This document shows, in pieces, positions 4,349-26,465 of a DNA stretch of 30,904 bases (within the stretch, counting starts at the first letter, position 1; each line of letters starts with the position of its first letter). The position numbers and the translations under genes are program-made. The notes under the pieces were generated by a model. It was not told the DNA's origin and did not search any database. It saw nothing but the letters and a program-made list of their open reading frames with translations. Source of the stretch: Candidatus Saccharimonadota bacterium (GTDB lineage: Bacteria > Patescibacteriota > Saccharimonadia > Saccharimonadales > JACDBH01); contig JAGQMT010000001.1 in NCBI GenBank assembly GCA_020428565.1, forward strand, positions 1 through 30,904. Direction: 5' to 3'.

Positions 4349-5185
4349 ATGGATGAGCAGAGTTTGGGTAGGCATCTGCAGACTGCCCGTATGAAAGCGG
4401 GGCTAACGCAGCAGGAATTATGTCAAAAAGCGAGTATTTCTTACTCGACATTGGCCAAAATTGAACGTGGAGCCATCAAGTCTCCATCGGTTTTTACTAT
4501 CCAGCGCCTCGCAGAAGTATTAAACACTAGTCTAGACCAACTCATGGGTAGTTTTGGCCCAGCTCTACCTCAAAAAGGTAGAAGTAAAAGTGGAGTTACC
4601 TTTGTGTATTTTGATATCAATGGCTGTTTGGTTAGATTCTTTCATCATGCCTTTACCGAACTAGCCGAAGAAACAGGTATGCCGGCTGACCAGATAGAAT
4701 CAACATTTTGGCATTACAATGACGCCGTGTGTCGAGGCGAGATGCCTATGGATGAGTTCAACCGAATTATGGCCGAAAACTTCAAACACATGATTGACTG
4801 GAAGCATTACTACATGAGGGCTGTCGAACCTATCCAGCAAATGCACGATTTAGTCATCTGGGCGTCACACTATTATAAGGTGGGTCTTCTTAGTAATATT
4901 ATGCCCGGCTTTATACCTGATATGCTAGGTAATGGCTTGTTACCCAATATTGAGTATGATACCATCATTGATTCATCAGCGGTAAAAACTATCAAGCCAG
5001 AGGCACAAATATTCCAAATTGCCCAGGAACACTCTGGCGCTAACTCTGGCGAAATACTATTCATCGATGACTCGAGGGCTAACATTATGGCGGCCAGTCA
5101 GCTAGGCTGGAAAGTGTTGTGGTTTGACGACTTCCGCCCAGAAGAATCCGTAGCGCGCGTCAAGCAAGCCCTAGAGCTAGCCTAG
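4349..5185 (+). CDS. XRE-family HTH fused to HAD-superfamily hydrolase
   Basis: N-terminal ARMKAGLTQQELCQKASISYSTLAKIERG. HAD motif I FDINGCL, motif II LLSN, KPE and motif IV FIDDS. Confidence 0.9.
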   Translation: MDEQSLGRHLQTARMKAGLTQQELCQKASISYSTLAKIERGAIKSPSVFTIQRLAEVLNTSLDQLMGSFGPALPQKGRSKSGVTFVYFDINGCLVRFFHHAFTELAEETGMPADQIESTFWHYNDAVCRGEMPMDEFNRIMAENFKHMIDWKHYYMRAVEPIQQMHDLVIWASHYYKVGLLSNIMPGFIPDMLGNGLLPNIEYDTIIDSSAVKTIKPEAQIFQIAQEHSGANSGEILFIDDSRANIMAASQLGWKVLWFDDFRPEESVARVKQALELA

Positions 5186-5211
5186 ACTCGGTATTTTAAA
5201 CCAAAGAGAAA

Positions 5212-5268
5212 CCCCAATTATCATTATCCGCTATACGGAACTCATTAGAGTATGAGTGATAATTGGGG
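5212..5268. terminator. Y-shaped (three-way) hairpin at the convergent end of the HAD gene and cassette A
   Basis: 12-bp stem CCCCAATTATCA/TGATAATTGGGG with two inner arms (TCCG/CGGA and ACTCAT/ATGAGT alternatives). Followed by a U-rich tract on the - strand. Confidence 0.55.
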
Positions 5269-5506
5269 GGTAGAGTGCCTTGATTGTCTGTCTATATGAC
5301 AGTATAGGTACAAGGCAGACCAGTGACGGTATTAGTATCTATGAGACACTTTGTGTATAAGCACGTACCGAAGCGCACTTCCCTGCTCGATGGACAGTCC
5401 ACAGAGCTTTGTTTCACCTCCAGGGAGAGGTTAGTTGGTTATCAGTTCCTTACTGCTAGGCGCATAGTTTGCGTAGTAGCGAGTCTATGCGAGACTCTTG
5501 GAGGCT

Positions 5507-6019
5507 TTAGCGACAGGCGAGCTCTCGCTCAACCCAGAAGTCATAGACTTCTGGGTTGTCGAGGCTCACTGCCTCGCGAGAGCGCTCGCCCGCGAGCGCT
5601 CTCGCCCTTACAAAGGCCTTGTAATATAGCCCTTCGTAAGGGCGGCCTCGCCTGTCGCGCGTGACGATAAGCGTCACGCGCCATGTTCCGTCCGCCATCT
5701 TGGTGGCGGCGATGAGGGTTCCCGAGGTGGCCGATGCCACCTCGATGTACCTCACTGGTGATTTCTCACCAATGAGGTACCACCCCCCTCCGACGTCCGC
5801 CTCCTCCACGAAGTGGAGGGTTTTTTTGTCATGGCCAGGGGCCATGACAAAAAAACGGCTCCCGAAGGAGTGGGTCGCCATGGCGACCTCCACTCCTTCA
5901 GGAGTCAAGCCGCTTGGGCAATGGGAAAACCCATGCCCAAGGGCCTTGGCAACCAGGTCCCAATCGTTCGTATAGAACACTTCGTCGAACATCATCTCCC
6001 CTTTTCGGGTCGTGTGCAT
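5507..6019 (-). CDS. Hypothetical protein with hairpin-tiled coding sequence (cassette A)
   Basis: 170-aa ORF. AAAGGGGAG lies just before the ATGs at 5995/5992, the likely start. GC-rich (35/60 G+C in 5521-5580 and in 5581-5640). No family recognised. Confidence 0.6.
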   Translation of the reverse strand: MHTTRKGEMMFDEVFYTNDWDLVAKALGHGFSHCPSGLTPEGVEVAMATHSFGSRFFVMAPGHDKKTLHFVEEADVGGGWYLIGEKSPVRYIEVASATSGTLIAATKMADGTWRVTLIVTRDRRGRPYEGLYYKAFVRARALAGERSREAVSLDNPEVYDFWVERELACR

Positions 6020-6287
6020 TTAGCATTGTTGCTAGGCTGCACGCCTCAAAGTCTCTAGTTTTAGAGCCCTTGAGCCGAAACTCAACTACATTGGCCATAG
6101 ACCAGCAATCGAGTTCCGAGCCCAAAAGCTCTAGTTACACAAAGTCAGAAAATGTTTGTATATCATAGGAACTAGCTCGAATGAGAGGCTCTTGTATTTG
6201 TACAAAGAATAGACTCCTTCCTACCAACAAACACCTTTACCGAACTAAGATAACCCAGCTTTTAATGTACGGAATCTTTGATTACTC

Positions 6288-6333
6288 AAAAATTCCCGGA
6301 GAGGCTGATGACATATCAGCCCAACCGGCAATT
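6288..6333 (-). terminator. Probable terminator of the helicase gene
   Basis: Long hairpin AATT.CCGG...GGCTGAT/ATCAGCC...CCGG.AATT followed by a T run, directly after the stop at 6338. Confidence 0.55.
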
Positions 6334-6337
6334 TTCG

Positions 6338-9300
6338 CTAACGATTACCATGATTTTTGGTAAATCTACTCTCTAGTGCAGATAGTGCCAGATCCAGATC
6401 ATCTACCGCCATAGGTATTTCGCCAAGACCATCATCAGGCGTAGGCTTATCAACAAGCTTAAGGGCATAATTGGTGTTACCATATTTTTCATACGACAAC
6501 AATACAATCACCCTTTCGCTATCTAGACGAATCTCATCTAGCAAATAAGCCTCCCGGCCATCGGCCGTATATTCTTGTGGACCCGACTCTGCCGCTACAT
6601 AGCTGTGACTGCCCAATCTGTCACGATAACCAGAATTCATTATCTGATCATACGACATCAACAAGCCAGTCGTGCTACGCAACTTCAGGTAAGGTCTCTC
6701 AACACTATCTACAGCAGCTTCGATTAGCTCATTGTCTAAATTATAGACGTCCTCTAGTAACTCATCTTCTTGACGTTCTGTTTCTTCGTCTCCGATTTGC
6801 CACGCACCCTCAATAAATTGATGGCTCTGTTCAATGTGACGAATTGCATATACTTGCTCCGATGTCAGTTGATCTGGCCAAGAAGCCACCTCGAAACTAC
6901 CAACATTTGGATCCCGTACAGATGAAGCAAAAGTTAAAGCGATTTCATCAGGATAAATCACATCCCAGATTTTATCAGAACCATCTCTATCAGCTTGCCT
7001 TAATTCTCCTGCAGAATTAACTACCCAAAAATATTGGTTGCCTGAGCCAGTTCCAATCCTTGTCCTACCTCCAAAATTTGTTAAGTAATCACCAGATTCT
7101 ATTAATTGCTGTTCGTACTCCCTCTTTAAACGCTCAGCCTGTCGTTCATGCAGTTCGGCTTCTATTGTCTCTACACCACTGTATACGTCTTCGATACGAC
7201 TATAGCTACGCTGGGCACCATCAGGCATATCAACCAAAAGTCTCAAGGCTACATTCGTAGGCAAAACAGACACATCACCATTAACAACTTGTTCCCAAGA
7301 TAAGGATATCTGAGCCTCTAAAGTTGAATCATAGGACCGAACATAATTAATCGGTACTTGCTCATCCATAACCATCATGACATCTGGATACTCACGCATC
7401 AATGCTTCGGTCCTTGTAATGTCATCTTCGTTGAATATATCATCCCAATTTAATCTGGGTGCATTGGCAAGTAGTGTGTGTAAATTAGTAATGTTATTTT
7501 CAGTCAATTGAGAAATTATCACGCTGTCAAGTCGACTCTGCAGATCTGTAGCAAACTGTGGATCAAACGTACGTGCCCAAGCTTGCAACTGATTTATCTC
7601 TTGTCTCCAATGTAGGTATTGTTGACGCAAAGGATGATTAGCACTTAGCAAAATATTCGCGAAATGTTCTTGAAGTTTATCAAAATCTGGAACAAGCATC
7701 TCTTCTCCAACAACCAAATTACCAAACAGCAAACTATGCTTATCACCAGCATGACCGTGTTCACTAAATACGATATCACCCACATCAGACAGACTAATAA
7801 GTTGTGGGGCAATCTCTGGCAACCAAGCTGGATCAACTTTACTAGCGCCCTGTAATAAGTTGAGAGTCTTAGGCCCTCGCTTGGTATTAATTTGAAGATC
7901 AAACGGAGTCGCCACCAATATATCACTACTACAAACACTACTACTTGATAGTTCACGATTTGAATCTTCTAAGGCAGAGTCATAGCTACCAGCATAGTGA
8001 TGAACCCACACCTGATCAATTAGTCCAGCGGCTATACACTTCAGTACAGCCTCTCTGTCTTCTGGCGTTAGTTCTTGAGTGCCGTCAGCACGCAACCCCA
8101 ACCGACTACGTATTTCCCTAATGCTCTGTTTTGCCGATGATACGTTCTTGCCCAAAATGTCATATTCTGACCATTTTTTATCAACACTACTCAATGCACG
8201 CAGTACATCACGCTGAGCCAAAAAGTCTGAATCTACTTCCTTTGTAAGTCGTTGCCAAGCAACATTATATTTACCGTTTTTGACAATTCCACCAGCCTGC
8301 TGAATACCAATACACTCCACCAAAGCTGATTGTACGTGCTTTGGATATTTGTGAGACTCAACAACCATACGTGCTAGATGAGTTTCTAGAGGCAACCGAT
8401 CCATCTTACGGCCTATATCAGTCAGTTCCTGATTTTCGGTCAAGGCACCCAATGTCCTAAGACGTAATTTAGCCTGTGCAATATCACCCCTATCAGGCTG
8501 ATGAAAGAAATCCATTGATTCCATGTCAAAATTACTAGCCGCCAATCGCAACATAGTTCGATCCAGTCGAGTGCGTAATATCTCGGGTGTTGGATGTGCT
8601 TCGCGCTCCTCAAACGCCACCGCAGTGCCAATGTTTTTCAAACTTGCCAACACATACTCTCCAGGCTTGGTCCTTCCAGCCCTACCAGCTCGTTGCAAAC
8701 AATCCGCTTGACTGATAGGTGCCATAAATAACCCCTCAACACCTTTGCGCTCTTCGGTACGCCTCTCTAATCCACTGTCTACCACAGCATCTATATCCTC
8801 TATAGTAATGCTAGTCTGAGCTACATTAGTAGCTAGTACAATCTTACCGCCACCGTGCTTCATGAACGCCTTGCGCTGTTCCTCTGCCGACAACTGACCG
8901 TGCAAAGGTATAATTGGTACACTAACACCACGGCTCCGGAGATCTCTCTCGACATCATCAATTTCTTTTTTGCCCGGCAAGAAGACAAGCGTATTTTTGC
9001 CTTGCTGTGCCATAGCAACGGTCTCGTCAACCAAATCCCCACCCTCCCGTCTAGCAACATCAAAGGTTCTACCCGGTACTTCTATAACAGGGGTTTGATT
9101 ACCAAAATACTGACTCAGAGCCTCGCTCTCTAGCGTTGCACTCATGGTCACTATTTTAATCTGCTCTTTTTTGGCCCATGCTAGTAGCACTTCAATATTC
9201 GTATTCCATTCATGTACTTCGTCTACTACTAGAACTTTCTCTCGCTCGACCCGATCTTCCCGACCTGCCAAAGACCGCACGACCTGTAATCCATCAGTAC

Positions 9301-9649
9301 AAAAAGTGATATCCGCATCCGCTGGACCAGATTTTTCTTTGGCCGTTCTATAGGCAACCGATATTGAATCGTCCGCTTCTTCTGCAACACGTTCGGCCAC
9401 CGTTCGAGCAGCCATAACTCGTGGCTGAGTCACTATCACTTCATAGCCAGCCTCAGCTAACATCTGTGGCACCTGCGTACTTTTGCCAGCGCCTGTTTCA
9501 GCAGTAATAACTGTTGCCTGATTAGATTCTACCGCATCAATAATTCGTTCTCGATAGGCCATAATTGGCAATTCTAGACCATCTAATATAACGTCCAGAT
9601 TATCTATCGGCTTATTATAATTATCCTGTTGCGTATTCCCTGTTGTCAT
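6338..9649 (-). CDS. HrpA/HrpB-like DExH-box (DEVH) ATP-dependent RNA helicase with a long unrecognised C-terminal region
   Basis: Motifs AETGAGKSTQVPQ, TQPR, FCTDG, DEVH, SAT, LVFLPG, PLHG, ATNVAQTSITI, QRAGRAGR, then an HA2-like LT.IGRKMDRLPL segment. 1103 aa. Confidence 0.9.
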   Translation of the reverse strand: MTTGNTQQDNYNKPIDNLDVILDGLELPIMAYRERIIDAVESNQATVITAETGAGKSTQVPQMLAEAGYEVIVTQPRVMAARTVAERVAEEADDSISVAYRTAKEKSGPADADITFCTDGLQVVRSLAGREDRVEREKVLVVDEVHEWNTNIEVLLAWAKKEQIKIVTMSATLESEALSQYFGNQTPVIEVPGRTFDVARREGGDLVDETVAMAQQGKNTLVFLPGKKEIDDVERDLRSRGVSVPIIPLHGQLSAEEQRKAFMKHGGGKIVLATNVAQTSITIEDIDAVVDSGLERRTEERKGVEGLFMAPISQADCLQRAGRAGRTKPGEYVLASLKNIGTAVAFEEREAHPTPEILRTRLDRTMLRLAASNFDMESMDFFHQPDRGDIAQAKLRLRTLGALTENQELTDIGRKMDRLPLETHLARMVVESHKYPKHVQSALVECIGIQQAGGIVKNGKYNVAWQRLTKEVDSDFLAQRDVLRALSSVDKKWSEYDILGKNVSSAKQSIREIRSRLGLRADGTQELTPEDREAVLKCIAAGLIDQVWVHHYAGSYDSALEDSNRELSSSSVCSSDILVATPFDLQINTKRGPKTLNLLQGASKVDPAWLPEIAPQLISLSDVGDIVFSEHGHAGDKHSLLFGNLVVGEEMLVPDFDKLQEHFANILLSANHPLRQQYLHWRQEINQLQAWARTFDPQFATDLQSRLDSVIISQLTENNITNLHTLLANAPRLNWDDIFNEDDITRTEALMREYPDVMMVMDEQVPINYVRSYDSTLEAQISLSWEQVVNGDVSVLPTNVALRLLVDMPDGAQRSYSRIEDVYSGVETIEAELHERQAERLKREYEQQLIESGDYLTNFGGRTRIGTGSGNQYFWVVNSAGELRQADRDGSDKIWDVIYPDEIALTFASSVRDPNVGSFEVASWPDQLTSEQVYAIRHIEQSHQFIEGAWQIGDEETERQEDELLEDVYNLDNELIEAAVDSVERPYLKLRSTTGLLMSYDQIMNSGYRDRLGSHSYVAAESGPQEYTADGREAYLLDEIRLDSERVIVLLSYEKYGNTNYALKLVDKPTPDDGLGEIPMAVDDLDLALSALESRFTKNHGNR

Positions 9650-9680
9650 AAATTTCTACTTATAATACCTGTTATTGATT

Positions 9681-9731
9681 ACTGTTTCGTCGTTTTCGAC
9701 TCATCAGAGGTGATACACATCACCTGACAGT
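9681..9731 (-). ncRNA. Type III hammerhead ribozyme
   Basis: Minus strand reads ACUGU-C / AGGUGAU-gugu-AUCACCU / CUGAUGA / GUCG-aaaa-CGAC / GAA-ACAGU: all conserved core bases, a G10.1-C11.1 pair, stems I-III and a GUC cleavage triplet. Predicted cut between 9726 and 9725. Confidence 0.93.
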
Positions 9732-10010
9732 TTGGGGTGTTGAATTTTGAGCAAAGCCCAAACACACCCCGTAGAGCACGGACATATATTAAAGAGGGGT
9801 CCGATTACCTCTAGTTCCTAACAAATTATTCAGTCCCTTATCCTTGGCTGATAGAATTATCAGTTCTTTCCTGAACCTAAAATTCATTTCACCAAGGCCG
9901 TAGACCTTACACCATAGTGTTAGCTATGGGCTTCCTCCTGCCTGTTAGCCAGACATGTCATATCACTATGACCTTTACCTCCGAGGGAGAGATAAGTTCA
10001 ACCGAGCTCA

Positions 10011-10355
10011 CTAGTTGCGTGCCAAAGCACAGCACCCAATGATTCGCCCGTCGGCATCCCTCACGGGTCCGCTCGTTGTGAGCAGATCGTGGGTGGGACG
10101 CCCCTGGGCGCGAGCCGCCGACACCGTGATGAAACTCACGATATAGGCAATTCCCTCGGTTGGCACGGGCAAGTCTTCGACTTCGCCAAACACCGTCTTG
10201 ACGACGGGTACGGCAAAACCATCGACCATCACCGCTCCGACCTGATGGTCAGATTGACGTGCCCTTGCCACTCCACCACTCGGAGCGATCGTCGCCACGA
10301 CATCATCGTCAGCAACAATCATCACCGCATGGGGAGTGAGGTTCACCAATTCCAT
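10011..10355 (-). CDS. Small NLTPH-motif protein (cassette B)
   Basis: SD GGAGG 5 nt upstream of ATG 10355. Sequence MELVNLTPH...PSG.VAR...V..LP.P....YIVS...VRDADGRIIGC..L matches a small conserved family often seen in phages and accessory regions. 38/60 G+C in 10021-10080. Confidence 0.8.
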   Translation of the reverse strand: MELVNLTPHAVMIVADDDVVATIAPSGGVARARQSDHQVGAVMVDGFAVPVVKTVFGEVEDLPVPTEGIAYIVSFITVSAARAQGRPTHDLLTTSGPVRDADGRIIGCCALARN

Positions 10356-10902
10356 TTTCACCTCCTTTTTAGTTGGCGAGCGTCTGTGGTTCCGGGACTT
10401 CCGGCAGACAGGAAAAGGTTGGAGTAAGTTACTCCACTAGGTGAATCAAGGGCGCATTGAACAAGACTACTAAGGCAGTCTACATATCATGGACACTAAT
10501 ATCAGCTAGTGGAATAACCCACTCTTTTACAGATATAAATTTAATGTACAGACCATCACATCCTAGCGATAGCCTTAGGTCCCGGTCAGTCGGTTCAGGA
10601 CTTAAGGCTGGTCAATTCGGTCAGCAAAGCCTCTCTATAAGCCTTACTAATTAACCACGCCTGTCTTTCTAAAATCATCGATACTCTGCCTATCCATCAC
10701 CAATAATCTACAATTATCAAGCTGGGAGGAGCAAGCTTTTAGCTTATGGCTCAACTGCCTAGATGTACGAGTGCTCTAGTTCTCGTATCAACAGCTCTAT
10801 CTAGAATCTATGTCTAGATCAATCTATTTAGATTCTTGGTAAGTAGGTCAAGTTGTCAATGTAATCGTTCTCAAAATGCCTCTCATTCATCGAACTGTAT
10901 AC

Positions 10903-10931
10903 ATCATACCGTAAATGTTTAAAAATGTCAA
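10903..10931 (-). promoter_or_regulatory. Sigma70-type promoter, divergent from the TrmB-like gene
   Basis: TTGACA (10931-10926), 17 bp, TATGAT (10908-10903). Confidence 0.6.
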
Positions 10932-10994
10932 TAATGTTATACGATATTCTCACTCAACAGGGGTAATTACATACTACTTTTTGTCAAAAGCTCG

Positions 10995-11023
10995 TTGACA
11001 AAATAATATTTTTTTGCTAATAT
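10995..11023 (+). promoter_or_regulatory. Promoter of a leaderless TrmB-like gene
   Basis: TTGACA, 17 bp, TGc-TAATAT, 7 nt, then ATG 11031. Confidence 0.75.
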
Positions 11024-11030
11024 AGTCAAT

Positions 11031-11768
11031 ATGACCCCCGAATTACTAGAAAACATCGGTCTCAACCATTCTCAAGCAAAGGCATATTTGGTATTAATCG
11101 AATCTGGTGCACTCACCCCTACCGAACTAGCCAACAAGATATTACAAAAACGCACTACTACCTATATGATAATGAATCAACTAGAAACACTAGGCTTGGT
11201 AGAAAAAACAACTAAGGGCACCAAAACCGCCTATGAAGCCACCAATCCCATCGCCCTAGAAAAACTATCTGAGTCACGACGCAAACAACTGCATCAAGCC
11301 GAAACCAGGGTTAAGCAAGCCATGCCCGCCCTACTCAGTTATTACTACTCCATTACAGAAAAACCAGGTATCAGGCTAGTTCAAGGCGTAGAAGGACTAA
11401 AGGACATTTATGCCGATACTTTGCGCGCTAAACAAGATATCTACTTCTTACGAACACCAGCGGATGTAGCAAAAATAGATCAAGAATATTTTGATAAATA
11501 CCGTCAAAAACGTGCTACGCTAGGCATAAAGACCTATGCCTTTACACCAGACACGGCACACAGCAGAGCTAGTTCCAATGACGACGAAAAGTTTCACATA
11601 CAGCGACAATGGATTAGCTCAGATATATATAGCGCGCCTGTAGAAATCGATGTCTACGGAGACAAGACCGCTCTACTTAGCTTTGGTGAAGATATAATTG
11701 GCGTTATCATACAAAGCCCAACTATCGCCGAGGCGATGAAACAACTCATCAGTAACCTCCCTAAGTAG
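11031..11768 (+). CDS. TrmB-family HTH transcriptional regulator
   Basis: LENIGLNHSQAKAYLVLIESGALTPTELANKILQKRTTTYMIMNQLETLGLV winged HTH, plus a C-terminal EIDVYGDKTALLSF effector/PLD-like domain. Confidence 0.85.
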   Translation: MTPELLENIGLNHSQAKAYLVLIESGALTPTELANKILQKRTTTYMIMNQLETLGLVEKTTKGTKTAYEATNPIALEKLSESRRKQLHQAETRVKQAMPALLSYYYSITEKPGIRLVQGVEGLKDIYADTLRAKQDIYFLRTPADVAKIDQEYFDKYRQKRATLGIKTYAFTPDTAHSRASSNDDEKFHIQRQWISSDIYSAPVEIDVYGDKTALLSFGEDIIGVIIQSPTIAEAMKQLISNLPK

Positions 11769-11780
11769 CTATCCCTGAGA

Positions 11781-12830
11781 TCATTCAAAATTAGACAAAT
11801 ACCGATGAATCTCTGCATCAGATTGTACAAACGAACCAACATAAGCTATAAATCTATCTATCTGGTCTTCAGATATGCCAGCAAATCTTTCTGTAAAATG
11901 GCTTCCCTCCGACCTGTGCCGAGCCAATATCTTACCAATCAAATCTCCTGGACGTGCAAAATCATCACCAACCCTAGGATCACGACCAATATCCAAGCTA
12001 AATCCCGTCGGAGACTTCGGGTCTTTATCTAGACGAATAGACAAATCTGCGGCATCAATAAATCTAGTATCGACCTGAACAGATTGATTATAACGATGAG
12101 CAGATTGTTCATTGCTGTGTGTAAATGCAAACTCAACTCTCTTTGCTGGTTCAACATCTACCCTCAATGTACCGCCATAATGATACTCATCAGGATAGAG
12201 GCCATCCTCAAGATCTGGCTCACTTTCAAATTCTGTCTCGTCGCCAGCGTACCTCCAAGTTTCATAACAACCAGCGTAAACTGCTTTTGTTCTACCATTA
12301 GTACGCATGGTGTAATCTGTCATACCAAACAAATAAGTACTCTGCTCGACAATACTTTCCTCTCCACTTACAAACCCCATAGATACAACTAATATGTTCA
12401 TAAGCGCGGTCAAATCACGCATAGCCACCACTGATTCACTCGTTGAATCGACATGCACATCAACATTCAACTCACTCCGTGCCGCCGATTCTATGATGTC
12501 ATAGGCTTCTCTCAGTGACCCACCTATCGCCATACCAATCTGAGGCTCAATACCAGCAAAACAATGCTCCAATATCGACACCGCTCGTCTCCCAGTCAAG
12601 CCTAGCTCATCTACTATACTGGACTCATGGTCAAGTCGTGCCCCTTCTCGATCAATAGCAGGATAAACAACCCTCGCCTTCTCCCGAGAAGTAAACATGT
12701 ACGGATATTTTTGCATCACACATGCAACCTCTACATCTGCGATTGCTGCCGAATCTTGCCCTAAATCCCGACTATCTGTGTCTGTGTTTTCTATAAGTGG
12801 AGCGATTTGCTCAATTACATTGCTACGCAT
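11781..12830 (-). CDS. Acidic hypothetical protein
   Basis: 349-aa ORF with its own consensus promoter. No family recognised. Confidence 0.7.
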   Translation of the reverse strand: MRSNVIEQIAPLIENTDTDSRDLGQDSAAIADVEVACVMQKYPYMFTSREKARVVYPAIDREGARLDHESSIVDELGLTGRRAVSILEHCFAGIEPQIGMAIGGSLREAYDIIESAARSELNVDVHVDSTSESVVAMRDLTALMNILVVSMGFVSGEESIVEQSTYLFGMTDYTMRTNGRTKAVYAGCYETWRYAGDETEFESEPDLEDGLYPDEYHYGGTLRVDVEPAKRVEFAFTHSNEQSAHRYNQSVQVDTRFIDAADLSIRLDKDPKSPTGFSLDIGRDPRVGDDFARPGDLIGKILARHRSEGSHFTERFAGISEDQIDRFIAYVGSFVQSDAEIHRYLSNFE

Positions 12831-12878
12831 TTTTGCATTCTTGAGTTATGGTTTTTTGTTTTAATTGCTTACATCTTT

Positions 12879-12907
12879 AATATAGCACAAAATTTGTTTA
12901 AAGTCAA
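12879..12907 (-). promoter_or_regulatory. Sigma70-type promoter
   Basis: TTGACT, 17 bp, TGc-TATATT. Confidence 0.65.
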
Positions 12908-12967
12908 TTCCGTGTGTTCCGTTGCACGTTTGCATCGACTAGCGATTGTACCCCAATGATTAGCGTC

Positions 12968-25622: not shown

Positions 25623-26417
25623 TTAATCACGAATCGCAGCCATCTGCCAGTAATCTTCAAATATAGCTCGTTGCATATCGGCAAAATATTTGCTAACTAT
25701 CTCGGCGCCAACCTTCTTGCCCGCCTGCCAATTATATATGCTAACTGTGTCATTATAAATGCAAAGCTGTTGTGATATTGGTATAACCTCTTTATCTAAA
25801 AAACGACGATTGTATGATTGCTCTACAAAGGCAATGTTTTTTGTAAATTGGTTTGGTTTTCCTTTGGGGTTAACTATCTCCCTAATAATATAGCCAGCGT
25901 CTAAGGTTTTTTGTCGGTGCTTTTCGGCCCAGCGCTGACTGCCTACTAGATCCTGCAAAGTACCATTGGCAAATATCAATATTTCATCTTTTGTCCTCAG
26001 CTCATTCCAAAGCATCTGCTTCATGCCATCCACCCCTTCATAAGTATTAACCTCAAAATCACTACTCCCTAATATGGACTTTTGACCATAGATGGTTTGC
26101 AACACCGGTATCGTCTCATGTAAGGCACTCTTTTTGACGTCTAGCTTTACCTCCTCAGTTTTGATAGCAATCTCTAAGTTCATAGGATTGTTCGCCACGA
26201 GCCTTCTACCAGTGTCATTTTGATTTTCGGCAATCAAACCCCGCTTTTCTAGCTCATCTGCAATCCTATACACCTTAGTGCGATTCACACCAGTTTTGCG
26301 GGCAACCTCTAGATGACTCATTGATTCTTTAAGTAACGCAAGGTACACCTTGCCCTCATCGGCCGAAAGTCCTAGTCTGTAAAGTTGTGATAAAAGATTG
26401 TTTGTGTTGTTCAACAT
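25623..26417 (-). CDS. TrmB-family HTH transcriptional regulator
   Basis: LYRLGLSADEGKVYLALLK...VNRTKVYRIADELEKRGLI, then YEGVDGMKQMLW and IYNDTVSIY. Likely start ATG 26417. Confidence 0.85.
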   Translation of the reverse strand: MLNNTNNLLSQLYRLGLSADEGKVYLALLKESMSHLEVARKTGVNRTKVYRIADELEKRGLIAENQNDTGRRLVANNPMNLEIAIKTEEVKLDVKKSALHETIPVLQTIYGQKSILGSSDFEVNTYEGVDGMKQMLWNELRTKDEILIFANGTLQDLVGSQRWAEKHRQKTLDAGYIIREIVNPKGKPNQFTKNIAFVEQSYNRRFLDKEVIPISQQLCIYNDTVSIYNWQAGKKVGAEIVSKYFADMQRAIFEDYWQMAAIRD

Positions 26418-26424
26418 AGTGAAC

Positions 26425-26453
26425 AGTTTAGCATTTTTACAATAATATGTCAA
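26425..26453 (-). promoter_or_regulatory. Promoter of the leaderless TrmB-like gene
   Basis: TTGACA, 17 bp, TGc-TAAACT, 7 nt, then ATG 26417. Confidence 0.75.
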
Positions 26454-26465
26454 TATATACAAGTT

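What the first reader, a model, noticed from the sequence alone, without database searches (positions are those of the whole stretch)
10011..10355. NLTPH protein may be a ring-nuclease-like or anti-defence factor
Seen: 114-aa protein with NLTPH, PSG.VAR, LP.P, YIVS and RDxxGRIIGC motifs. From memory, this resembles the small family recently described as CRISPR ring nuclease Crn4 (cyclic oligoadenylate degradation), which is also found in mobile elements; I cannot confirm the match here. No CRISPR locus is in the window, so if correct it would suggest counter-defence against host or community cyclic-nucleotide signalling, carried on a ribozyme-terminated RNA.
Basis: inference. Interest (0 to 1): 0.6.

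Follow-up and report, generated by a model that had tools for sequence, protein, structure and literature searches.

The report
Orphan Crn4 ring nuclease gene
The small gene encodes a genuine member of the recently described Crn4 enzyme family, which destroys the cyclic-oligoadenylate alarm molecules of bacterial immunity. It sits on a foreign island in an ultra-small (Saccharibacteria-type) bacterium where no system that makes those signals was found.

Summary
The 114-aa ORF (10355..10011, minus strand) is a Crn4b-type ring nuclease.

- **Sequence evidence:** PADLOC Unk_01 E 3.8e-20; solved Crn4b structure 9r7b E 5.7e-11.
- **Fold evidence:** an AlphaFold model (pLDDT 95) matches only Crn4 structures in the PDB (TM 0.72).
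- **Catalytic residues:** the Thr/His/Arg triad is kept (T7, H9, R99).

**Context**
- The gene lies in a ~7.8-kb insert (5186-12967) that is missing between the same two housekeeping genes in four relatives.
- A TrmB-like regulator is transcribed divergently from it, and this pairing recurs in a Nomurabacteria genome.
- A type III hammerhead ribozyme follows 278 nt downstream.
- The coding sequence is GC-rich and unusually hairpin-dense (z about -7).
- No Cas10, Cas1 or CD-NTase was found in this genome (68% complete). No Cas10 was found in 60 relatives.

So this is an orphan copy, like the published phage and plasmid copies. It most likely quenches cA3/cA4 signalling. Why it is here is unproven.

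This scan has already met Crn4 genes in at least 61 other genomes, including GC-rich, hairpin-packed ones in CPR bacteria. Verdict: a new member of a known kind, in an unusual setting.

The parts
10011..10355 (-). crn4 coding sequence (114 aa, Crn4b type), stop codon included
   Evidence: GC 59% and GC3 0.635 against 0.32-0.47 in neighbouring genes. The CDS folds at -169 kcal/mol against -135+-5 for synonymous-codon shuffles, z -6.8; dinucleotide-shuffle z is -7.9.
10359..10367 (-). Shine-Dalgarno AAGGAGGTG, 3 nt before the ATG
   Evidence: Read from the sequence. The same upstream letters are conserved in homologues whose annotated start is too far upstream (P0003, P0004).
10903..10931 (-). 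Promoter-like site pointing at crn4 (TTGACA, 17 nt, TATGAT); implies a leader of about 540 nt
   Evidence: 11 of 12 consensus positions. Both hexamers are conserved in the equivalent intergenic region of Nomurabacteria locus L109. Inferred, not shown.
10979..11003 (.). Inverted repeat TTTTGTCAA-N7-TTGACAAAA between the two divergent genes, overlapping the -35 of the trmB-like promoter; candidate operator
   Evidence: The core TGTCAA...TTGACA is conserved in L109. Binding by the regulator is inferred.
11031..11768 (+). TrmB/TrmBL2-like regulator (245 aa), divergent from crn4
   Evidence: Pfam TrmB HTH E 4.7e-12. The AF2 model (pLDDT 91) matches TrmBL2 and TrmB over the full length: wHTH, long helix and a PLD-like C-terminal domain. 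A 45%-identical homologue is divergent from crn4 in L109. The closest Crn4 (P0002) and closest regulator (P0017) both come from a Logan contig of 2,053 nt.
9679..9733 (-). Type III hammerhead ribozyme, 278 nt after the crn4 stop and 30 nt before the helicase start; predicted cut after C9726
   Evidence: Rfam RF00008, 44.1 bits, E 7e-8. The core is intact: GUC, CUGAUGA, GAAA; stems III/I/II have 5/7/4 bp. It is the only match to a strict descriptor in the 665-kb genome and in the ~1.3 Mb of loci fetched up to then. No convincing terminator lies between the crn4 stop and the ribozyme.
6338..9649 (-). HrpA/HrpB-like DEAH helicase (1103 aa) downstream of the ribozyme on the same strand
   Evidence: Not found in 5 relatives and no close relative in IMG/VR. 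No link to crn4 in any other locus.
5186..12967 (.). About 7.8-kb inserted island holding all of the above, plus a hairpin-tiled ORF (5507-6019) and an orphan 349-aa ORF (11781-12830)
   Evidence: In four relatives the HTH-HAD gene (ends 5185 here) and the ValRS gene (ends 12968 here) are convergent neighbours 14-185 bp apart. No flanking direct repeats and no integrase were found.

Best explanation
The ORF encodes an intact, probably active Crn4b-type ring nuclease. This is a small homodimeric, metal-independent phosphodiesterase. It uses His9 and Thr7 from one subunit and Arg99 from the other to open cyclic oligoadenylates into short linear products ending in a 2',3'-cyclic phosphate. By analogy with the characterised Crn4b, the substrates would be cA4 and cA3. 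The gene arrived as part of a ~7.8-kb island in a Saccharibacteria-type (CPR) chromosome and is an orphan: no Cas10 or other cyclase was found with it. It is probably transcribed from a promoter next to a divergent TrmB-like regulator gene whose product likely binds the inverted repeat between them, an arrangement like acr-aca. The transcript is likely cut by the downstream hammerhead, separating the crn4 message from the helicase message. Its effect in the cell would be to quench cA3/cA4 signalling. The most likely origin is an anti-defence gene of mobile DNA. The family, fold, catalytic residues, insertion, regulator pairing and ribozyme motif are shown. Activity, substrate, regulation, RNA cleavage and biological role are inferred.
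For: Identity: PADLOC Unk_01, the old name of Crn4, E 3.8e-20 over the full length. phmmer to Crn4b 9r7b gives E 5.7e-11 over residues 2-112, and to Crn4a 9sma 0.007. The AF2 model has pLDDT 95. Foldseek hits only Crn4 entries (9r7b E 4e-11, TM 0.72, 36% identity, all 114 columns); the next hit has E 0.76. T7/H9/R99 align with the catalytic T13/H15/R112 of Crn4a and H17/R103 of Crn4b and are invariant in homologues. Orphan and foreign status: the insert is absent at the same site in 4 relatives. No Crn4 was found in 60 relatives, and 8 of 400 phylum genomes carry one, none of which is among the 7 with a Cas10 palm domain. No Cas10 or Cas1 in the own genome, no SMODS, and no Cas10 in 61 genomes of the order. 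Mobile-DNA affinity: 183 IMG/VR contigs, 17 phage records and 6 plasmids encode relatives, and PHROG families match. Regulation: the divergent pairing is conserved in L109, with shared promoter and inverted repeat. A published precedent is the csx20-aca14 operon, a ring nuclease under Aca control (PMC13551039). Ribozyme.
Against: The island has no integrase, phage structural genes or flanking repeats, so its mobility is unproven. An anti-defence gene has no obvious target in a cell, or an order, where no Cas10 was found. The assembly is only 68% complete, so a cyclase could be unassembled. The hammerhead scores below Rfam's gathering threshold, and its thermodynamic fold is unremarkable (z -1.1). 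No expression data could be obtained. High GC3 need not mean recent transfer: GC-rich crn4 copies recur in many AT-rich genomes, and about 30% of copies are hairpin-dense.
Confidence: 0.7

Rival explanations
1. It is the cell's own off-switch for an endogenous cyclic-oligoadenylate pathway. The cyclase is either unassembled (32% of the genome is missing) or of an unrecognised kind. Crn4 resets the signal after infection, as cellular ring nucleases do.
For: In 10 other Saccharibacteria genomes crn4 sits about 240 bp upstream of an AAA-Csx3 gene, with HD and MYG1/DHH genes in conserved order. That looks like a chromosomal module rather than a phage gene. CD-NTase (SMODS) genes exist in 4 of 60 relatives, 3 of them from published genomes. 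The assembly is 68% complete.
Against: No Cas10 palm domain in the own genome, in 60 relatives, or in 5 Saccharibacteria genomes that carry crn4 plus AAA-Csx3. No SMODS in the own genome. The window's genome has no AAA-Csx3, MYG1 or c3 homologue. The gene is in an insert absent from close relatives.
Confidence: 0.15
2. It serves nucleotide scavenging or detoxification. An epibiont that cannot make nucleotides opens cyclic or short oligoadenylates taken up from its host or surroundings, and other enzymes finish the breakdown.
For: In relatives the ring-nuclease genes are clustered with an HD phosphohydrolase, a MYG1/DHH exonuclease and, in G045, a polynucleotide-kinase-like P-loop protein. Together these could process products with 5'-OH and 2',3'-cyclic phosphate ends. 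Crn4a slowly cleaves poly(A) in vitro (PMC12830947).
Against: Purely inferential. None of those partner genes is in this island or was found in this assembly, except a distant HD_4 homologue. The distribution is sporadic (8 of 400), which does not fit a core metabolic role. No uptake route for cOA is known.
Confidence: 0.07
3. It is a hitch-hiking relic with no present function in this cell. It was left by a past mobile element and is not yet decayed.
For: It has no cognate system, a sporadic distribution, foreign composition, and orphan ORFs of unknown function beside it in the island.
Against: The frame is intact with a strong SD, and every family-invariant residue is kept. Nine homologues at 59-84% identity keep the full length. 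The regulator pairing is conserved across CPR lineages.
Confidence: 0.08

Closest known systems
Crn4b ring nuclease (Hyphomicrobiales bacterium MBK8772583; PDB 9r7b; Chi et al. 2025, PMC12830947)
   Same: Same family and subfamily. Alignment covers the full length at 36% identity with the same predicted fold (TM 0.72). The NLTPH and RDxxGRIIG motifs and the catalytic His and Arg are kept. It is short and lacks the ~10-residue hairpin extension of Crn4a. Like the published phage and plasmid Crn4b copies, it stands outside any CRISPR locus.
   Different: It is found in a CPR (Saccharibacteria-type) chromosome island in an order where no Cas10 was found in the 61 genomes sampled. It is paired with a TrmB-like regulator and followed by a hammerhead ribozyme. 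The coding sequence is GC-rich and hairpin-dense. Activity is untested.
Crn4a (Actinomyces procaprae WP_136192672; PDB 9sma, 9qs9)
   Same: Same fold and catalytic residues (Foldseek E 1e-7 to 2e-6). It is a metal-independent cOA phosphodiesterase.
   Different: [quoted passage not shown] Sequence similarity to the window protein is weak (E 0.007).
AcrIII-1 / Crn2 (DUF1874) viral ring nuclease
   Same: It works like this in the anti-defence reading: a small dimeric His-dependent enzyme on mobile DNA that degrades cA4 to switch off type III CRISPR effectors (established knowledge; discussed in PMC12830947).
   Different: Unrelated fold and sequence, so it is not a family member.
csx20-aca14 and other acr-aca operons (PMC13551039)
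   Same: A ring-nuclease gene placed under a small DNA-binding regulator that recognises an inverted repeat in the promoter.
   Different: Here the regulator is a 245-aa TrmB/TrmBL2-type protein with a PLD-like C-terminal domain, transcribed divergently rather than in the same operon. Binding is untested.
Type III hammerhead ribozymes between genes of bacterial accessory or prophage regions (Rfam RF00008)
   Same: Complete catalytic core, three stems, and an intergenic position on the coding strand.
   Different: It scores 4 bits under the gathering threshold. It follows a ring-nuclease gene, and in relative G045 another hammerhead follows a Csx20-like gene.

Membership tests
Crn4 (Unk01) ring nucleases | Significant sequence or profile similarity to the family over the whole length | tested here: met
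   PADLOC PDLC01138 Unk_01: E 3.8e-20, residues 1-113 against profile positions 1-100 of 103. phmmer against Crn4b 9r7b: E 5.7e-11, residues 2-112.
Crn4 (Unk01) ring nucleases | The Crn4 fold, unique in the PDB | tested here: met
   The AF2 model (pLDDT 95) matches only Crn4 chains. The best is 9r7b at E 4.3e-11 and TM 0.72; the next non-Crn4 hit has E 0.76. Only the monomer was modelled.
Crn4 (Unk01) ring nucleases | Conserved catalytic Thr, His and Arg (T13, H15, R112 in Crn4a) | tested here: met
   T7, H9 and R99 align with them. They are invariant in 15 homologues, and TPH is present in all 192 extracted homologues.
Crn4 (Unk01) ring nucleases | Homodimer with the active site built from both subunits | not tested
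   No multimer prediction was run.
Crn4 (Unk01) ring nucleases | Cleavage of cyclic oligoadenylates | not testable with these tools
   Needs an enzyme assay.
Crn4b subfamily | Short form lacking the ~10-residue insertion of Crn4a | tested here: met
   At 114 aa it aligns to Crn4b in 114 columns, whereas the Crn4a alignments need 126-128 columns. It is far closer to Crn4b than to Crn4a in sequence.
CRISPR-associated (cellular) ring nuclease | Location in or beside a type III CRISPR-Cas locus with a cOA-activated effector | tested here: not met
   No cas gene in the 30.9-kb contig. No Cas10 (TIGR02578, TIGR02577, PF22335) or Cas1 in the 68%-complete assembly. No Cas10 in 60 relatives.
Anti-CRISPR (Acr) with Aca regulator | Carried on a phage, plasmid or other mobile element; adjacent HTH regulator binding a promoter inverted repeat | tested here: inconclusive
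   The island is an insertion but has no mobility or phage genes and no flanking repeats. A regulator and an inverted repeat are present and conserved in L109, but binding is untested.
Hammerhead ribozyme type III (RF00008) | Conserved core (CUGAUGA, GAAA, cleavage triplet NUH) with stems I-III, open at stem III | tested here: met
   All core nucleotides are present, and stems III/I/II have 5/7/4 bp. The score is 44.1 bits against a gathering score of 48.5. Self-cleavage is not testable here.

The most novel reading that the evidence does not exclude
Saccharibacteria-order bacteria, in which no Cas10 was found in 61 sampled genomes, repeatedly keep stand-alone enzymes that destroy type III CRISPR messengers. 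These are Crn4 here and in at least 10 other species, and a Csx20-like protein in another, often beside AAA-Csx3, HD, DHH and kinase-like genes. The messages may be 'armoured': GC-rich, hairpin-dense, and ended by a hammerhead that leaves a 2',3'-cyclic phosphate. This could be an unrecognised biology of cyclic-oligoadenylate interception in obligate epibionts or their mobile elements. For example, it could neutralise or salvage signals made by others, with mRNAs built to survive the single-strand RNases that those signals switch on.
Probability: 0.12. Interest if true: 0.75.

Novelty: new member of a known kind. Interest (0 to 1): 0.4.

Why it matters
Crn4 was described only in 2025, from 22 CRISPR-linked genes and about 20 phage or plasmid copies.

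- **Family size:** the profile search here finds over 10,000 clusters (50% identity) and 183 viral contigs, so the family is far larger than first reported.
- **Reach:** it extends into ultra-small CPR bacteria in which no type III CRISPR was found.
- **Open question:** if the enzyme is active, what cyclic-oligoadenylate signal does a Saccharibacterium or its mobile DNA ever meet?
- **Testable constructs:** the locus offers a ready-made set of experiments: a ring nuclease, its candidate regulator and operator, a hammerhead at its 3' end, and a strongly folded coding sequence.
- **As a bare annotation it is ordinary:** a correct call of a known family, already met many times by this scan.

Tried and rejected
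- **Pfam:** no model matches the protein. The only NCBIfam hit was noise.
- **Own-genome and lineage searches:** Cas10, Cas1, SMODS and AAA-Csx3 gave nothing in the own genome. Cas10 was also not found in 60 relatives.
- **Close relatives' DNA context (P0002-P0010):** The metagenome scan returned nothing above 53% identity. The listing of cluster members gave no accessions.
- **Regulator as cOA sensor:** rejected. The model is a TrmB/TrmBL2 architecture with a PLD-like domain, not CARF or SAVED.
- **349-aa island ORF as cyclase or effector:** no family, atlas or fold lead.
- **Helicase link to crn4 or phages:** none in any other locus or in IMG/VR.
- **Island ends:** no att-like direct repeats.
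- **Leader-trailer pairing closing the crn4 RNA:** not beyond chance (z -1.5).
- **Hammerhead as a general companion of crn4:** rejected. No type III hammerhead by my strict descriptor in the 111 loci fetched by then, and no ribozyme at Rfam's gathering score in the nine loci scanned.
- **High GC as proof of recent transfer from a high-GC donor:** weakened. GC-rich crn4 recurs in many AT-rich genomes, some in conserved synteny.
- **Hairpin density as a trait specific to crn4:** only partly upheld. 10 of 34 crn4 copies reach z<-4, but so do 3 of 21 neighbouring genes.
- **Protein atlas query for the c3 protein:** could not be answered.

Full report
**1. The observation**

The minus strand carries an ORF from ATG 10355 to the stop at 10013..10011, 114 aa. 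A strong ribosome-binding site, AAGGAGGTG, lies three bases upstream. In an alignment of 15 homologues the invariant positions include N5-H9, R31, G57-E58, L62-P63, S74, D90, R99 and G103.

**2. What the protein is**

Pfam has no model for it. Three other lines identify it.

- **Profile match.** PADLOC's 'Unk_01, unknown small protein, sometimes fused to CARF' matches over the full length at E 3.8e-20. Two PHROG families match at 5e-21 and 3e-16.
- **Link to Crn4.** Chi et al. 2025 (PMC12830947) state that Unk01 is what they renamed Crn4. They define two subfamilies, a and b; b is shorter and is also found on phages and plasmids. They give T13, H15 and R112 (Crn4a numbering; H17 and R103 in Crn4b) as the conserved catalytic residues.
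- **Direct sequence match to solved chains.** The protein hits Crn4b (9r7b) at E 5.7e-11 over residues 2-112 and Crn4a (9sma) at 0.007. In these alignments T7, H9 and R99 fall on the catalytic residues.
- **Fold.** An AlphaFold2 model built on the 15-sequence alignment has mean pLDDT 95. In the PDB it matches Crn4 entries and nothing else. 9r7b gives E 4.3e-11, TM 0.72 and 36% identity over all 114 columns. Crn4a chains give 1e-7 to 2e-6. The next hit has E 0.76.

Membership of the Crn4 family, b subfamily, is therefore met on sequence, fold and catalytic residues. Dimerisation was not tested, and activity cannot be tested here.

The characterised Crn4b cleaves cA4 and cA3 but not cA6, without metal, giving products that end in a 2',3'-cyclic phosphate. 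That is the activity I infer.

**3. Where it sits**

*The genome.* The window is a whole contig of a 665-kb, 149-contig assembly that is 68% complete with 1.6% contamination. It carries housekeeping genes: ValRS, TsaD, a Mur ligase, GroEL and PGI. Relatives have genomes of 0.5-1.3 Mb. One genome of the same order is a record titled Candidatus Saccharibacteria (G261 is identical to L093). The host is therefore a Saccharibacteria-type CPR bacterium.

*The island.* In four relatives the HIT gene, the HTH-HAD gene, ValRS and TsaD are contiguous, with 14-185 bp between the convergent HTH-HAD and ValRS genes. Here 7.8 kb (5186-12967) lies between them. Its contents are:

- a GC-rich, hairpin-tiled ORF
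- an HrpA/HrpB-like DEAH helicase, not found in five relatives
- the hammerhead
- crn4
- 675 nt without an ORF
- a TrmB-like gene
- an orphan 349-aa ORF

I found no integrase, no phage genes and no flanking repeats. It is an island of unknown mobility.

**4. An orphan copy**

| Search | Result |
|---|---|
| Cas10 (TIGR02578, TIGR02577, PF22335) in own genome | none |
| Cas1 in own genome | none |
| CD-NTase SMODS domain in own genome | none |
| AAA-Csx3 in own genome | none |
| Cas10 palm domain in the order sample | 0 of 61 genomes (49 at least 90% complete) |
| Crn4 in relatives | 0 of 60 |
| Crn4 in phylum sample | 8 of 400, in eight families |
| Cas10 palm domain in phylum sample | 7 of 400, none overlapping the Crn4 carriers |

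The assembly is incomplete, so absence from the own genome alone would be weak evidence. The order-wide result makes a cognate type III system unlikely.

SMODS occurs in 4 of 60 relatives. One of these is the unpublished genome G051, so 3 come from published genomes.

**5. The family at large**

- The profile finds 10,270 cluster representatives at E<=1e-3 and 6,573 at E<=1e-10 among 1.84 billion proteins. These include tandem and C-terminally fused forms.
- 183 IMG/VR contigs encode relatives.
- Seventeen phage records do too: Paenibacillus phages Scottie and Unity, Bacillus phage Shbh1, Microcystis phages, an Altiarchaeum virus and a Methanofastidiosa virus.
- Six plasmids also carry one.
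- Among species-representative genomes, the best 12 hits are 11 Saccharibacteria MAGs and one Lachnospiraceae genome.
- In a FastTree of 192 homologues, the window's protein groups with nine database proteins at 59-84% identity. That group is sister to a set holding all 11 Saccharibacteria genome copies and seven viral contigs (SH-like support 91). The tree has only 112 columns and is poorly resolved.

**6. Regulation (inferred)**

The 245-aa neighbour is transcribed divergently. Its model (pLDDT 91) matches TrmBL2 and TrmB over the full length: a winged helix, a long helix and a PLD-like domain. It is not a CARF or SAVED sensor.

A 45%-identical homologue stands in the same divergent position next to crn4 in a Nomurabacteria genome. 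The two intergenic regions share a TTGACA/TATGAT promoter pointing at crn4 (10931..10903, 11 of 12 consensus positions). They also share an inverted repeat, TGTCAA-N-TTGACA (10979-11003), that overlaps the regulator's own promoter.

The closest Crn4 and the closest regulator homologue both come from a Logan contig of 2,053 nt, which suggests a third instance.

The design resembles acr-aca units. A ring nuclease (Csx20) under an Aca repressor has been shown experimentally (PMC13551039).

**7. The RNA**

*The hammerhead.* A type III hammerhead lies at 9733..9679 on the coding strand, 278 nt after the crn4 stop and 30 nt before the helicase start. All core nucleotides are present, with stems of 5, 7 and 4 bp. 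Rfam gives 44.1 bits (gathering score 48.5), E 7e-8.

A strict descriptor finds it and nothing else in the whole genome and in the ~1.3 Mb of loci fetched up to then. No convincing terminator precedes it. Cleavage is predicted after C9726, which would leave the crn4 RNA with a 2',3'-cyclic phosphate end.

*Hammerheads in relatives.* Hammerhead-like hits with E<1e-3 occur in 18 of 60 relatives and in none of 14 control genomes. Two of the 18 are the unpublished genomes G051 and G017.

*The coding sequence.* It has GC3 of 0.635, against 0.32-0.47 in other genes of the window. It folds far better than synonymous-codon shuffles (z -6.8) or dinucleotide shuffles (z -7.9). Three control genes of the window give z between -0.4 and +1.5.

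I tested this after reading earlier notes of this scan. It changed how I read the GC anomaly, which need not be a mark of recent transfer.

In a random sample, 10 of 34 crn4 copies reach z<-4, but so do 3 of 21 neighbouring genes. The trait belongs at least partly to the accessory regions and not to crn4 alone.

A proposed leader-trailer closure of the RNA is not beyond chance.

**8. Related modules**

In ten Saccharibacteria genomes crn4 is followed by AAA-Csx3 (PADLOC E 1e-37 to 1e-46), an HD_4 protein, a MYG1/DHH protein and an unknown ~500-aa protein. The five of these genomes that I tested have no Cas10 palm domain.

In relative G045 the same AAA-Csx3 and HD genes are followed by a sequence of features:

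- a GC-rich 120-aa ORF with weak but threefold Csx20-profile similarity (best E 1.8e-5)
- a type III hammerhead 167 nt later
- a polynucleotide-kinase-like gene
- a relative of the unknown protein

Two unrelated ring-nuclease-type genes, each followed by a hammerhead, form a pattern worth following. It rests on two cases, and one of them has a weak assignment.

**9. Verdict**

- **Identity:** very likely Crn4b (about 0.95).
- **Role:** quenching of cA3/cA4 signalling.
  - Most likely origin is an anti-defence gene of mobile DNA (about 0.45).
  - Rivals are an endogenous off-switch for an unseen pathway, nucleotide salvage, or a relic.
- **Novelty:** the family is published and this scan has reported it in at least 61 other genomes, including CPR islands and GC-rich hairpin-packed copies. 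This is a new member of a known kind in an unusual setting.

- The second protein-atlas query could not be answered.

Noticed in passing
window 5495-5960 (ORF 5507..6019, minus strand): A GC-rich stretch made of about 12 different near-perfect hairpins in tandem. The RNA fold is -304 kcal/mol against -185+-8 for shuffles (z -15). The overlapping 170-aa ORF also beats synonymous shuffles (z -13.6). No Rfam, Pfam, NCBIfam, PADLOC or PHROG match.
   Followed up: partly
L092-L101 (ten Saccharibacteria genomes), e.g. L095:8001-13728: A conserved gene order: crn4, AAA-Csx3, HD_4, MYG1/DHH, then an unknown ~500-aa protein with a coiled coil. The five of these genomes tested had no Cas10 palm domain. 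It looks like an orphan set of type III CRISPR accessory genes.
   Followed up: partly
L229 (G045:C9:3000-18000), minus strand 10826..4994: AAA-Csx3, then HD_4, then a GC-rich 120-aa Csx20-like ORF (7941..7579). A type III hammerhead (7412..7358) follows, then a polynucleotide-kinase-like P-loop gene starting 6 nt later, then a GC-rich relative of the unknown ~500-aa protein. This is a second ring-nuclease-type gene followed by a hammerhead.
   Followed up: partly
relatives G002-G051; loci L219-L228: Sub-threshold type III hammerhead matches in 18 of 60 genomes of the order (two of them unpublished: G051, G017), up to five per genome, and in none of 14 control genomes. Several follow small GC-rich ORFs. 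In L220 these are two 131-aa proteins with an RNA polymerase alpha C-terminal domain.
   Followed up: partly
L094, L095, L096, L101 against L093, L099: Within one conserved gene order, crn4 keeps GC3 of 0.69-0.74 beside an AAA-Csx3 gene with GC3 of 0.32-0.41 in four species. In two others crn4 has GC3 of 0.38-0.43. These high-GC3 copies are not hairpin-dense (z near 0), so the high GC3 is unexplained.
   Followed up: no
P0072-P0075, P0079: Proteins of 238-521 aa with two Crn4-like stretches, or a C-terminal Crn4 domain on a longer protein. These are tandem and fused forms beyond the three fusions described in the 2025 paper.
   Followed up: no
window 10410-10530, minus strand: A long, nearly perfect hairpin of about 110 nt in the crn4 leader, just upstream of the Shine-Dalgarno sequence. 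It was picked up only as a chance-level miRNA-like Rfam match.
   Followed up: no
window 25623-26462, minus strand: A second TrmB-family regulator (279 aa) elsewhere on the contig, outside the island.
   Followed up: no
L102:2644-2982: A group I intron (Rfam 50.9 bits) 5 kb from the crn4 copy of a Lachnospiraceae genome. That crn4 CDS is also hairpin-dense (z -6.2).
   Followed up: no
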